A stretch of DNA of 64,000 nucleotides from Callorhinchus milii. Taxonomy: Eukaryota. Below, in pieces: positions 1-41,840 of the stretch (position 1 is the first letter of the stretch; each line of letters begins with the position of its first letter). The stretch lies in assembly GCF_018977255.1 (NCBI RefSeq), contig NW_024704751.1, positions 9,920,001-9,984,000 of the forward strand. Direction: 5' to 3'. The translations under genes were made by a program, and so were the position numbers. The notes beneath the pieces are model-generated. The model was given only the letters and a program-made list of their open reading frames with translations. It was not told the DNA's origin and did not search any database.

Positions 1-64
1 CCACTTTCCTCTCTCTATAGATGCTGCCTGACCCGCTGAGCGTTCCCAGCCACTTCTGTTATTT
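1..64 (+). mobile_element. 3' part of the Penelope-type terminal repeat (family of 710-809)
   Basis: CACTTTCCTCTCTCTATAGATGCTGCCTGACCCGCTGAGCGTTCCCAGCCACTTCTGTT matches 748-809. Confidence 0.75.
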
Positions 65-364
65 ATTACAGGTTTTATAGAACTGTCCTGAGCCACATGG
101 ACTCAATGTACTGTTCAAGAGGACCTGATCAATAGTGGCTTAATGAAGTACAAAGCTCTTTTGGAAACAGCTTTATCATGAATATTTATACATCTATTAA
201 ACTCTGCAGGAAATGTTTTGTGATTCCATTGCACAAAATCTCCTCAGGGTTCTGCTTTTAAAGCACTTTATGAATTGAAAGACTTGTAAGCAACTTGATA
301 ACTCAAGGACCTGGTTCAAAGGTAGTAAATAAGATAAAAGTGTGCATCGCAAAAGGTAAATAAA

Positions 365-845
365 TTTATCTGAGGATTGTTGACCAGGCATGGGAAGAAA
401 CTGTTTTTCCTTTTTGAATAGGATCATGGGATCTTTAATGTTCAGATGAAGAGTAGTAGACAGGATCTCAGTTTGCTTAGCCCTCGCTTTGATACAGCTT
501 CTTATCACATCATTGAGATGTCTGTGTCAAAGTGTTCACAGATGCTTCAAAGTGCTTCACACCCTGAAGCTGTTGTTGTTCCCATACACAATGCCTTGGG
601 ACGTCCTCCCAATGTGAAAGGTGCTATACAAATATAATGTTGCTTGTTGTTGTTGTTCCTGTTTAACGTCTCATTTGAAAGATGACGCTTCCGACAATGA
701 AGTGCTCACTAGTTCTGACGAAGAGTCGTGGACCCGAAACGTTGACTCACTTTCCTTTCTCCATAGATGCTGCCTGACCTGCGGAGGGTTCCCGGCCACT
801 TCTGTTTTTGTGCTCACAAGTAACTGAACTGGAGCCATCAACAGC
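365..845 (-). mobile_element. Degenerate Deu-domain SINE interrupted by nested insertions
   Basis: CATGGGATCTTTAATGTTCA...GTTTAACGTCTCATTTGAAAGATGACGCTTCCGACA is the reverse complement of the Deu domain at 13100-13270. It is interrupted by a SINE tail (~488-545), an L2 tail (~590-657) and the hammerhead unit (710-809). Confidence 0.65.
710..809 (+). mobile_element. ~100-bp Penelope-like terminal-repeat unit with a minimal hammerhead ribozyme motif, flanked by an 8-bp TSD
   Basis: AGTT-CTGACGA-A-GAGTCGTGGACCC-GAAA-CGTT-GACT at 711-747; direct repeat GTGCTCAC at 702-709 and 810-817. Confidence 0.75.
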
Positions 846-954
846 CCAAATAGATAATCTTCATCACTAAGGTAGACAGCTTAAAACAACTCTAATGTAC
901 GACGCTTTGGCCAAGGGGATAAGCAAGCTTCTGCTTGAGTGGCTGAATCCATTC

Positions 955-1215
955 ATCATTTTGCAAACCTCTATTAGATTCCCCCTCAACCTTCTCTGTT
1001 TTCACATCTCACTCGATAAACATAACCTGATCCCTGGTGTCATTGAAGTGAATCTCTGCCATACCTCTCCCTGACTCTCATATCCTTTTCATAATGCGGT
1101 GCCAAAACTGGCCATAACCCTCTGACTGCAGTCAATCAAAATCTTGTATAAACTTAACAACACCTCTTTGCATAATTCCATCCTTGCTCTCTTATATTAA
1201 GAACTGTGTTTGCTT
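955..1215 (-). mobile_element. Degenerate CR1 LINE ORF2 fragment
   Basis: ACCTCTATTAGATTCCCCCTCAACCTTCTC is the reverse complement of the CR1 RRLRGDLIEV motif; plus-strand equivalents lie at ~2160 and ~16360. Confidence 0.6.
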
Positions 1216-1251
1216 TGGCTGAAAGGATGCAAGTATAAGCCTTTTTCCTCA

Positions 1252-1603
1252 ATGCCTCTGTTTATTTAGCAGTAAGTAGGAACCTGTTTGTTAGTTGATT
1301 GGCGGATCGCTTTTCCAGGAGTAATAATCCCTTCATAAAAAATAAAAATAATAATGACTGTTATTCATAATAATCCACGACTGTTTGTGGGACATTGCTG
1401 TGCACAATTGGCTGCCGCGTTCGCCCACAAATATACAGTCAATTCACTTTACAGTGTATTCTGTGAAGCGCTTTGGGACGTCCTCCCGACGTGAAAAGCG
1501 CTATATCAAATGCAAGGATTATTATTATTATCCTGTGAAGCGCTTTGAGACGTCTCGAAGACGTGATAAGGCGCTGTAACAAATGCCAGGATTATTATTA
1601 TTA
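1252..1603 (+). mobile_element. 5'-truncated tRNA-derived SINE with two tandem 3' tails
   Basis: Body CAGTAAGTAGGAACC...TGTTTGTGGGACATTGCTGTGCACAATTGGCTGCCGCG; two stem-loop tails, each ending in (ATT)n. Confidence 0.9.
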
Positions 1604-2109
1604 ATATCACTCACCGGCTGTCGCTACAGCAGGGCCAGCATGAATAGATTCGTCATTTGAAGAGTCAATGAATAAACGGATAAGGATATGTCTCCCTTTT
1701 CCTCTCTGGAAACTGATCAAGAGCAGATGTCATTGCCCTAATCAGATTCTGACCGAGTACTGCTAGATTATTGCACTGTTTTTTTGTTTAATCTCTGGAT
1801 AAACCAAGCATTAACTAGGTCACTTGTTACATATGAATTTGAGGCTTTGCCACTATTAACATATGATTGTGTATTGTGTTCAACTGGTGTCACATTACAT
1901 TTCAACTAAAATTGAGGTGGGAAAGGTTAGATTTTAAAATGAATTCTAGAGATTCAGTGGAAGATCCGAAAATGTTATTAGACCTCAGTTGGAGCGGTAA
2001 GTCCAGTTTTGGGCACTCCATTATAGAAAGGACATGGGGAAGGAGCAGCAGAGATAAATAATAATAATGTTTTCATTTGATAAAGTGCCTTTCATGTTAG
2101 GAGGACGTC

Positions 2110-2340
2110 TCATGAGAGGTTATAGATCTGAAAAAATATTACTGTTTTTACTAGGGCAGGCGAGATTAAGGGGAAATTTAATAGAGGTTTGAAAATGGTT
2201 CTGATAGGGTAACCAGAGGAAGATTATTTGCACAGATTGCCGGCTCAGTAATGATCCGATCAATCGTGGAAAATTAACATTAAGGTCAAATGGTCTTCTA
2301 GCCAAAGACTGGCAGAATTTCGGGCCTTGGTCTTTTATTG
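2110..2340 (+). mobile_element. Degenerate CR1 LINE 3' fragment
   Basis: GAGATTAAGGGGAAATTTAATAGAGGTTT (RLRGNLIEV-like) followed by decayed 3' sequence. Confidence 0.5.
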
Positions 2341-2887
2341 AAGTATCTGTTCTATCTCACAAATAGCTGCGGAGTACTTTGCAAACGTGTGGTGCAATAC
2401 ATTGCAACAGCATCATGTCTTTTGAACAGCCCAACCGTGTTAGAGAAAGGTTGAGATGCATTGTACCTGAGATCATGACGACGCAACAAATCTGCAAAGG
2501 CTTGTTCTCCGCAACAGCTACGAGCCCCCTTTAAGGAGAAAGCTTTGCCATATATCAGCTGCAAGCCTGCAGGTGTGTGGGTGATTTTGTCAGGGGCTGG
2601 AGTTCGTTGCGGAGGGAGATTTAGTGGCGTTGGGGACCTGGTGCATCCATCAGGAAGAGGAGACCGTGTTCTCCGGGCTCCAAGCATCCATCAGGGAAGG
2701 CAGTTAGCAGCATCTGGGCTGGGAGCATTCATCAAAGGAATCCACCAGCACAACACACCGAGACCTGGCAACATCCCTCGGGCCAACAGCCAGCGTCATA
2801 AAGGGCAAGAGGATCAATCAAGGGGATTCCAGCCCAGCAACAACAGGGCCAGAGCCAGGGCCAGGGCCAGCTGACAAAAGGCAACAT

Positions 2888-3122
2888 ACTGCAGGTGCTG
2901 GAAATCTTAAATCAAAACAGAACTGAGAACACTCAGCAAGTCGGGCAGCGGATATGGAGAGAGGAAAGTGACCTTTCATCAGAACTGGGGGATGTTGGAA
3001 GAGAGCAGTTTATAAGAACAAGCAGAAAAGGGGGTGGGGAAAGAAAAAGGAGGTCAGAGGTTTCTCCATAGATGCTACCTGACCTGCTGAGTGTTCCCAG
3101 TCACTTCTGTTTTTATTCCAGG
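2888..3122. mobile_element. Inverted pair of Penelope-type terminal repeats
   Basis: Minus copy ~2888-2990 with a partly deleted hammerhead core (CTGATGA retained) and plus copy ~3060-3120, both matching 710-809. Confidence 0.7.
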
Positions 3123-4206: not shown

Positions 4207-4425
4207 CAAAAACAGAAGTGGCCGGGAACCCTCAGCAGGTCAGGCGGCATCTATGGAGAAAGGAAAGTGAGTCAACATTTCGGGTCCACGACCCTTCGTC
4301 AGAACTGGGGCATATTGGGAGGGAGAGGCTTTTAAGGGCTAACAGAGAGGGGGGGAGGCAGGGCAAGGAAGACAAGGGAGAAATGGGGTAGTCGACATGG
4401 GATGATAGATTAAAGAGGCTTGTTT
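4207..4425 (-). mobile_element. Penelope-type 3' terminal region with a hammerhead motif
   Basis: Reverse complement of 4270-4306 is AGTT-CTGACGA-A-GGGTC-GTG-GACCC-GAAA-TGTT-GACT; the element continues into pyrimidine-rich sequence on the minus strand. Confidence 0.75.
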
Positions 4426-4499
4426 TGTTGCAAGTTCTTCCCCCCCACCGCCCACCCCACCCCACTCCCCCATTTTGTTTTGCATCATTAACACCTCTT

Positions 4500-41737: not shown

Positions 41738-41840
41738 TGAAACTGAATCAAAAACAGAAGTTGCTGGGAACACTCAGCAGGTCAGCCATCTATGGAGAAA
41801 GTGAGTCAACCTTTCAGGTCCAAGACCCTTTGTGAAACTG
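41738..41840 (-). mobile_element. Decayed Penelope-type terminal repeat with a mutated hammerhead core
   Basis: Matches 4207-4306; CTGACGA has become TTCACAA, while stem II GGTC/GACC and GAAA are retained. Confidence 0.7.

What the first reader, a model, noticed from the sequence alone, without database searches (positions are those of the whole stretch)
702..817. ~100-bp hammerhead-ribozyme unit inserted on its own with an 8-bp target-site duplication
Seen: 711-747 reads AGTT-CTGACGA-A-GAGTC-GTG-GACCC-GAAA-CG-TT-GACT. This gives stem I AGTT/GACT, the core CUGAnGA plus one extra A, stem II with one A-C mismatch in this copy, GAAA, and a palindromic AACGTT in place of stem III, with predicted cleavage after GUU. 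The unit 710-809 is flanked by GTGCTCAC (702-709, 810-817) and interrupts a Deu-SINE that resumes afterwards. Known: Penelope-like elements (PLEs) and retrozymes carry minimal type I hammerheads whose palindromic stem III works as a dimer. Inference: the insert starts almost exactly at the ribozyme, so this may be a very small non-autonomous, ribozyme-bearing mobile unit mobilised by PLE machinery. A 5'-truncated PLE insertion would look similar.
Basis: partly seen in the sequence, partly recalled or inferred. Interest (0 to 1): 0.7.

Follow-up and report, generated by a model that had tools for sequence, protein, structure and literature searches.

The report
Front-end stub of a Penelope retrotransposon
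This 100-base insert is one of thousands of short copies of the ribozyme-bearing repeat of a Penelope-like jumping gene, not a separate mobile ribozyme, and many such copies start just before the ribozyme rather than at its cut site, likely because the element's RNA begins there.

Summary
A minimal hammerhead motif lies at 711-747 in a ~100-bp insert with a target-site duplication (8 bp perfect, 12 bp with one mismatch) that interrupts an older repeat. It is not a separate element. It is the pseudo-LTR piece of a Neptune-like Penelope-like element (PLE): the same unit follows the GIY-YIG ORF end (27 of 30 loci) and runs into the ORF start (10 of 30). Short and long copies have the same majority sequence and no distinguishing alleles. 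Of 151 copies picked by a downstream anchor, 49 begin in a 5-nt window at the ribozyme's 5' foot, with no peak at the predicted cut site, and 144 end at one of two 3' sites. An extra G precedes the start, as expected for a copied cap. Likely mechanism: the PLE protein primes inside its own mRNA 100-135 nt from the cap and runs off the 5' end of uncut RNA. The transcription start and the cleavage are untested. This scan noted the same pattern before, in this genome and in others.

The parts
702..713 (+). Left target-site duplication: 8 bp perfect (702-709), extendable to 12 bp with one mismatch; 711-713 are shared with the element's first bases
711..811 (+). PLE pseudo-LTR stub, from the family's preferred 5' start to the first of its two 3' end sites; lacks the optional 35-nt tail; 5 of 101 differences from the subfamily A majority
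711..747 (+). Minimal type I hammerhead motif (stem I 4 bp, core, extra A, stem II with one broken pair in this copy, palindromic stem III); predicted cut 743/744, activity untested
   Evidence: description in PMC4209133
748..811 (+). Leader downstream of the ribozyme: pyrimidine tract, an AG at 765-766 and an ATG at 767-769, ending in the T-rich first 3' end site (inferred priming site)
810..821 (+). Right target-site duplication; 810-811 shared with the element's 3' end; base 818 varies between assembly and runs
661..709 (+). Older host repeat (Deu-SINE-like, name recalled), left of the insert; its earlier part lies at 421-474
818..836 (+). Weak continuation of the host repeat after the insert
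4208..4430 (-). Longer copy of the same family in the window, continuing about 130 nt upstream of the ribozyme into the pseudo-LTR
41740..41840 (-). Another stub of the family in the window that starts at the ribozyme foot

Best explanation
The insert is a copy of the hammerhead-bearing repeat of an abundant Penelope-like retrotransposon, likely made when the element's protein primed DNA synthesis 100-135 bases inside its own RNA and likely ran off that RNA's capped 5' end, which would lie at the first bases of the ribozyme. Shown: family membership, two fixed 3' ends, a sharp 5' start zone, duplications, head-to-head pairs, an excess G before the start, and no separate lineage. Inferred: (1) transcription starts at an initiator-like C/A at the ribozyme foot; (2) the priming site occurs near both ends of the transcript, so priming at the 3' copy gives long, randomly truncated insertions and priming at the 5' copy gives ~100- or ~137-nt run-off stubs; (3) the templates were uncut, so the ribozyme does not set the boundary; (4) head-to-head pairs come from priming on both nicked strands or from fold-back. 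The window copy is likely a dead product.
For: Coordinates: 0 = first core C, window 715. The unit follows the ORF end in 27 of 30 endonuclease-seeded loci (one is the query's own locus). That ORF end passes Pfam GIY-YIG in 1 of 3 pieces (26.4 bits, cut-off 22.6). 10 of 14 RT-seeded regions run RT-EN-repeat-ribozyme. L116 shows repeat-ORF-repeat. The unit runs into the ORF start in 10 of 30 loci. Among 151 copies anchored downstream of the ribozyme, 59 start at -7..0 (49 at -6..-2), 29 further upstream and 63 inside the unit; Fisher p 4e-35 and 6e-21 against both sides. 3' ends: 73 at +90..104 and 71 at +123..133, matching the two internal RT start sites and 30-40 bp tail of PMC11167929. Duplications of 8-19 bp in 45 of 151, against 2 of 452 swapped-flank controls; inverted partner in 72 of 151. 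Base before the A at -4: G in 10 of 12 unbiased copies, and genome-wide 134 G against 114 A+T, where 25% G is expected. 26 of 30 G loci end at -4, and fold-back explains 2 of them. An extra G marks copied caps in L1 (PMC11702581, one passage). Among 67 plain stubs, the 14 distinct loci with a called duplication have it within 0-12 nt of the start (12 within 7 nt), and no two loci share an upstream exon. No allele separates 97 short from 95 long subfamily A copies at p<0.01; majority sequences are the same in both subfamilies.
Against: No RNA 5'-end data were obtained. Starts spread over about 5 nt, and many include the C at -5 (656 C matches genome-wide; 12 of 30 sampled end at -5..-7), so there is no single start base. 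Of the 10 copies that continue into the ORF, only 1 starts at -4, 3 start upstream and 6 inside; this needs read-through or tandem templates as well. The spread of ends over -2..-5 also fits a CAG splice acceptor at -5..-3, and in D. virilis an intron ends at helix I (PMC4209133). Subfamily B is 18 short to 1 long, against 41 to 28 for A, which is unexplained. End calls come from local alignment (about +/-2 nt). The 151 include a few arms from the same inverted pair. 71 of them are the first-listed of 1,244 matches, all on one contig.
Confidence: 0.7

Rival explanations
1. A separate ~100-nt non-autonomous, SINE- or retrozyme-like element with its own master copies, moved by PLE proteins.
For: Sharp ends and thousands of copies. 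Stubs keep the inferred start, and the Drosophila Penelope promoter is largely internal (PMC2377424 passages). Subfamily B is short-biased. Short copies are slightly less diverged (4.4 vs 5.6% in A, 7.0 vs 9.4% in B), although the samples were selected by search.
Against: Same majority sequence in short and long copies of both subfamilies; smallest p 0.006 of 80 positions tested in B. Shared derived alleles are no commoner among short-short pairs (18 of 4656) than short-long pairs (44 of 9409). No tandem arrays (1 of 151). B copies with an endonuclease ORF upstream exist.
Confidence: 0.1
2. The 5' wall comes from RNA structure or processing at the ribozyme foot (RT stop or template switch at stem I, or a splice acceptor at -5..-3), not from a cap.
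For: There is a CAG after a pyrimidine tract at -5..-3, and an intron ends at helix I in D. virilis. Some inverted junctions overlap through stem I complementarity.
Against: No shared upstream exon among 67 plain stubs, and called duplications lie close to the start. The G excess at -5 is not what exon ends give (exon-end consensus recalled). The wall lies on the far side of the structure, where RT has already unwound it (inference).
Confidence: 0.15
3. Ordinary random 5' truncation of 3'-primed PLE copies; this copy starts at the ribozyme by chance.
For: 63 of 151 copies start inside the unit and 29 upstream, at smooth low rates. Solo minimal hammerheads were already ascribed to truncated PLEs.
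Against: A 15- to 20-fold jump in end rate over 5 nt, and the G excess at -5.
Confidence: 0.05

Closest known systems
Endonuclease-positive Penelope-like elements, Neptune/Nematis type (Craig et al. 2021, PMC8557442, passages; Arkhipova et al. 2013, PMC3846280, passages)
   Same: [quoted passage not shown]
   Different: Here most copies are only the ribozyme-to-priming-site piece, with a sharp start at the ribozyme foot; the passages I saw do not describe that. Clade assigned by motif only, with no tree.
Minimal hammerheads of metazoan PLE repeats (Cervera and De la Pena 2014, PMC4209133, parts 1-2 of 4)
   Same: Type I, short helix I, extra base between positions 9 and 10.1, palindromic 15.2-16.2, mostly solo copies, pairs on opposite strands 100-700 bp apart
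   Different: That paper proposes cleavage and circular templates; here copy ends avoid the cut site. Helix II is 5 bp, the base at the cut is U, and this copy has a broken pair.
Poseidon element of the green anole, PAc (Frangieh et al. 2024, PMC11167929, parts 1-2 of 4; supplement text searched, figures not seen)
   Same: Two internal RT start sites giving an optional tail; both strands nicked and extended; product length set by the template's 5' end; ribozyme cleavage not needed; no RNA ends at the cut site
   Different: Different clade. There the ORF starts inside the ribozyme; here the long ORF seems to start after the tail. The parts read do not report a pile-up of genomic 5' ends.
Non-LTR retrozymes (Cervera and De la Pena 2020, PMC7229834, passages; Li et al. 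2026, 10.64898/2026.07.22.740005, parts 1-3 of 5)
   Same: Small non-coding units with a type I hammerhead, related to PLE repeats
   Different: Retrozymes are head-to-tail tandem repeats; these stubs are single or head-to-head, with PLE priming-site ends.

Membership tests
EN+ Penelope-like element | [quoted passage not shown] | tested here: met
   GIY-YIG above cut-off in 1 of 3 pieces, below cut-off in 2 more. RT is weak by Pfam (RVT_1 E 0.006, below cut-off), but DKG, MG and YIDD motifs are visible. Contiguous with the unit in 10 of 14 regions.
EN+ Penelope-like element | Same repeat on both sides of the ORF (pseudo-LTR) | tested here: met
   L116; unit after the ORF in 27 of 30 and before it in 10 of 30
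EN+ Penelope-like element | Optional 30-40 bp tail, inverted 5' partner, variable target-site duplication | tested here: met
   3' ends 73 and 71 of 151 at two sites; inverted partner 72 of 151; duplications 45 of 151 vs 2 of 452 controls
Neptune/Nematis clade | CX2-5CxxC linker plus CCHH-type cysteines in the endonuclease | tested here: met
   Seen in translations of several copies; definition from PMC8557442
Neptune/Nematis clade | Placement in the RT phylogeny | not tested
   No reference PLE proteins were fetched and no tree was built
Minimal PLE hammerhead | Core, extra base before stem II, short stem I, palindromic stem III | tested here: met
   (palindrome intact in 49 of 88 copies, CpG-decayed in 25)
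Minimal PLE hammerhead | Covariation in the stems | tested here: inconclusive
   Between subfamilies: one compensatory change (G-C 51, A-U 15 of 88), one pair-keeping change (U-G 65, U-A 14), loop changes, core unchanged. These are single events. Core conservation 0.976 vs 0.962 downstream in A.
Minimal PLE hammerhead | Self-cleavage as a dimer | not testable with these tools
   Needs an assay; two-strand folding did not give the full dimer fold
Non-LTR retrozyme | Head-to-tail tandem units, each with a hammerhead | tested here: not met
   1 of 151 has a same-strand neighbour within 400 bp
Non-LTR retrozyme | Copy boundaries set by the cleavage site | tested here: not met
   End rate 0.74% per base at +26..31 vs 1.18% over +1..40
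Non-LTR retrozyme | Circular RNA monomers | not testable with these tools
   Only contigs of guessed RNA runs were available
Independent non-autonomous PLE derivative | Own lineage with alleles that separate it from the autonomous element | tested here: not met

The most novel reading that the evidence does not exclude
These stubs are integrated 'strong-stop' cDNAs that mark the cap site and both priming sites of a vertebrate Penelope-like element to within a few bases. Because the transcript would start upstream of its own priming site, one full-length copying event would rebuild a 100-137-bp direct repeat at both ends, which would explain how pseudo-LTRs are regenerated without a second insertion. 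A bolder version, with subfamily B stubs transcribed from an internal promoter as a self-copying mini-element, is not excluded (about 0.08).
Probability: 0.35. Interest if true: 0.6.

Novelty: new member of a known kind. Interest (0 to 1): 0.33.

Why it matters
As an element it is ordinary: solo minimal hammerheads from PLEs are in print. The useful part is the end statistics. They give in vivo, genome-wide support for internal priming and for copying of uncut RNA, so far shown in vitro for one lizard element, and they point to a testable transcription start at the ribozyme foot. Schostak et al. [quoted passage not shown] The stubs would also mislead repeat annotation into calling a ribozyme SINE.

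Tried and rejected
Rfam found no hammerhead in 1-3000. Single-strand folding of 702-817 is not better than shuffles (z +1.1). Two-strand folding paired the palindrome for the window copy but lost stems I and II, and the family version folded differently: no verdict on dimers. A cleavage-site peak was looked for and not found. Partner arms show a mild cluster at +24..32 (11 of 72), which fold-back at stem I could equally explain. No RNA holder was listed. Four guessed RNA contig sets laid on a repeat-ORF junction listed no clear splice joint and cannot show starts. Four DNA runs listed no empty allele. The PDB sequence search with an RT piece gave 0 hits, and no protein-atlas look-up was obtained. 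My first impression, that all copies have fixed ends, came from the query's own limits and was corrected with the flanks. A shared upstream exon was sought and not found. Literature searches for the pile-up of starts at the ribozyme foot gave no paper describing it in the parts I read. Lunse et al. on dimer cleavage is not held and is known here only through a review's passages (PMC6765202). Supplementary figure S2 of PMC11167929 (genomic coverage) could show such 5' ends and could not be seen; supplements of the bioRxiv preprint were not consulted.

Full report
Observation. A core pattern matches once in the window and never in 100 shuffles. Rfam does not detect it. The duplication is 8 bp perfect and extends to 12 bp with one mismatch, sharing 3 bases with the element's start and 2 with its end. 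Removing the insert in silico gives an ungapped alignment across the junction to a profile of 9 copies of an older repeat. The gain over the left flank alone is small (23.8 vs 22.2 bits), and the name Deu-SINE is recalled.

The family. The window lies in a ~0.99-Gb genome in which the unit had 1,025 first-look candidates. Exact patterns gave 87 and 1,244 matches for two downstream anchors and 904 for the ribozyme foot. Seventy-one 10-kb tiles (710 kb) held 10 arms, roughly 14,000 genome-wide as a rough estimate. About half of the top 30 copies continue upstream into a pyrimidine-rich region. That region follows the end of an ORF: in 27 of 30 loci seeded with that ORF end, the unit lies downstream on the same strand. 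The ORF end is a GIY-YIG domain (1 of 3 pieces above Pfam's cut-off; 2 more below it), with a CX4CxxC linker and internal cysteines, the Neptune/Nematis pattern of PMC8557442 (passages). Ten of 14 regions seeded with the RT start run through RT and endonuclease into the unit. RT is weak by Pfam (E 0.006), but its motifs are visible. L116 has the repeat on both sides of the ORF, and in 10 of 30 loci seeded with the ORF start the unit and tail run straight into it. The insert is therefore the pseudo-LTR piece of a Penelope-like element.

Copy ends. To avoid bias I chose copies by anchors downstream of the ribozyme: all 87 matches of one anchor (80 after dropping 7 with identical flanks) and 71 of 1,244 matches of a second (the first listed, on one contig). 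With the first core C as 0 (window 715), 59 of 151 start at -7..0, 49 of them at -6..-2; 63 start inside the unit and 29 upstream. The chance of ending per base is 17.6% at -6..-2, 1.2% at +1..40, 0.8% at -30..-8, and 0.74% around the cut site. 3' ends fall at +90..104 (73) or +123..133 (71). An inverted partner lies at the 5' side in 72 of 151, and duplications of 8-19 bp were found in 45 of 151 against 2 of 452 controls. The window copy runs from -4 to about +96, the commonest short form.

What sets the start. It is not the cut site, which lies about 33 nt downstream, so the copied RNA was likely uncut. This agrees with PAc, where cleavage was not needed and no reads ended at the cut site (PMC11167929, parts 1-2 of 4). 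The start sits in a pyrimidine-C-A-G-T-T context that fits an initiator (consensus recalled). Where copies start at the A at -4, the base before is G in 10 of 12 unbiased copies; genome-wide it is G 134 times against A+T 114, where 25% G is expected. Of 30 G loci, 26 end there and 4 are long copies; fold-back explains 2 of the 26. An extra G at full-length L1 junctions reflects the cap (PMC11702581, one passage). Among 67 plain stubs, 14 distinct loci had a called duplication, all within 12 nt of the start, and no shared upstream exon appeared, which argues against splicing at the CAG at -5..-3. Against a clean picture: starts spread over about 5 nt and often include the C at -5, and only 1 of 10 ORF-containing copies starts at -4 while 3 start upstream.

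Not a separate element. In subfamily A, to which the window copy belongs, 97 short and 95 long copies differ at no position at p<0.01. Short and long majority sequences are the same in A (97 vs 97) and in B (40 vs 27), and derived alleles are shared across the classes. These samples include search-selected loci. Only 1 of 151 copies has a same-strand neighbour within 400 bp, unlike tandem retrozymes (PMC7229834 passages; 10.64898/2026.07.22.740005 parts 1-3 of 5). One loose end is that B is 18 short to 1 long in the unbiased set, against 41 to 28 for A.

The ribozyme. It fits the minimal PLE hammerhead of PMC4209133 (parts 1-2 of 4), which also reports solo motifs and opposite-strand pairs as truncated PLEs. 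Between subfamilies there is one compensatory stem II change, one pair-keeping stem I change, loop changes, and an unchanged core. That is consistent with selection in the masters but amounts to single events. In inserted copies the core is no better kept than downstream sequence (0.976 vs 0.962). The window copy's stem mutation weakens the monomer stems from -8.2 to -1.3 kcal/mol. Cleavage was not tested.

Mechanism. The element is likely transcribed from the ribozyme foot. Its priming signal lies 100-135 nt downstream and again in the 3' repeat. Priming at the 3' copy gives long, variably truncated insertions; priming at the 5' copy gives a short cDNA that runs off the cap. Priming on both nicked strands, as PAc does in vitro, or fold-back would give the head-to-head pairs known from other PLEs (PMC3846280 passages). 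Confidence 0.7; rivals are a structural or splice-related stop (0.15), a self-copying mini-element (0.1) and chance truncation (0.05).

Novelty. The element and solo ribozyme stubs are of a known kind. I found no paper describing the sharp start with an extra G in searches, but one relevant supplementary figure could not be seen. I stated this reading before consulting earlier notes. The scan's unchecked notes report the same pattern in this genome and in others; that is not independent proof. Interest 0.33.

Noticed in passing
window 421-474 and 661-709: The host repeat is split twice: about 186 bp of other repeats lie between its two parts, before the PLE stub interrupts it again.
   Followed up: partly
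window 1-68, 2914-2971 (-), 3061-3114 (+), 4208-4430 (-): Four more pieces of the same PLE repeat lie within 4.5 kb, including a head-to-head pair; about 5 arms in 4.5 kb, against about 14 per Mb in random tiles.
   Followed up: partly
window 748-769; L352 about 1500-1560: The leader has several acceptor-like AG motifs (765-766 just before an ATG, and another just before the likely ORF start after the tail). The ATG at 767 opens only a short frame in linked copies. An intron or upstream ORF is possible; contigs listed no splice joint.
   Followed up: partly
L261-L290 and unbiased copies: A T often precedes the junction G (18 of 26 G loci, read) or the start at -3 (11 of 19), which would fit an untemplated A added to the cDNA end.
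   Followed up: partly
L270, L207, L229, L278: Separate loci share nearly the same inverted junction near the predicted cut site and the ribozyme foot, suggesting a preferred fold-back or join.
   Followed up: no
L018 1180-1600: An RT-start fragment is joined directly, on the same strand, to a stub starting at the ribozyme foot: an internal deletion or template jump.
   Followed up: no
window 818: This base of the right duplication reads G in contigs of 3 of 4 DNA runs, making a CpG; it may be the older state of the target.
   Followed up: partly
subfamily B (L421-L450 and others): A second subfamily with a compensatory stem II change is older by divergence and much more often short.
   Followed up: partly
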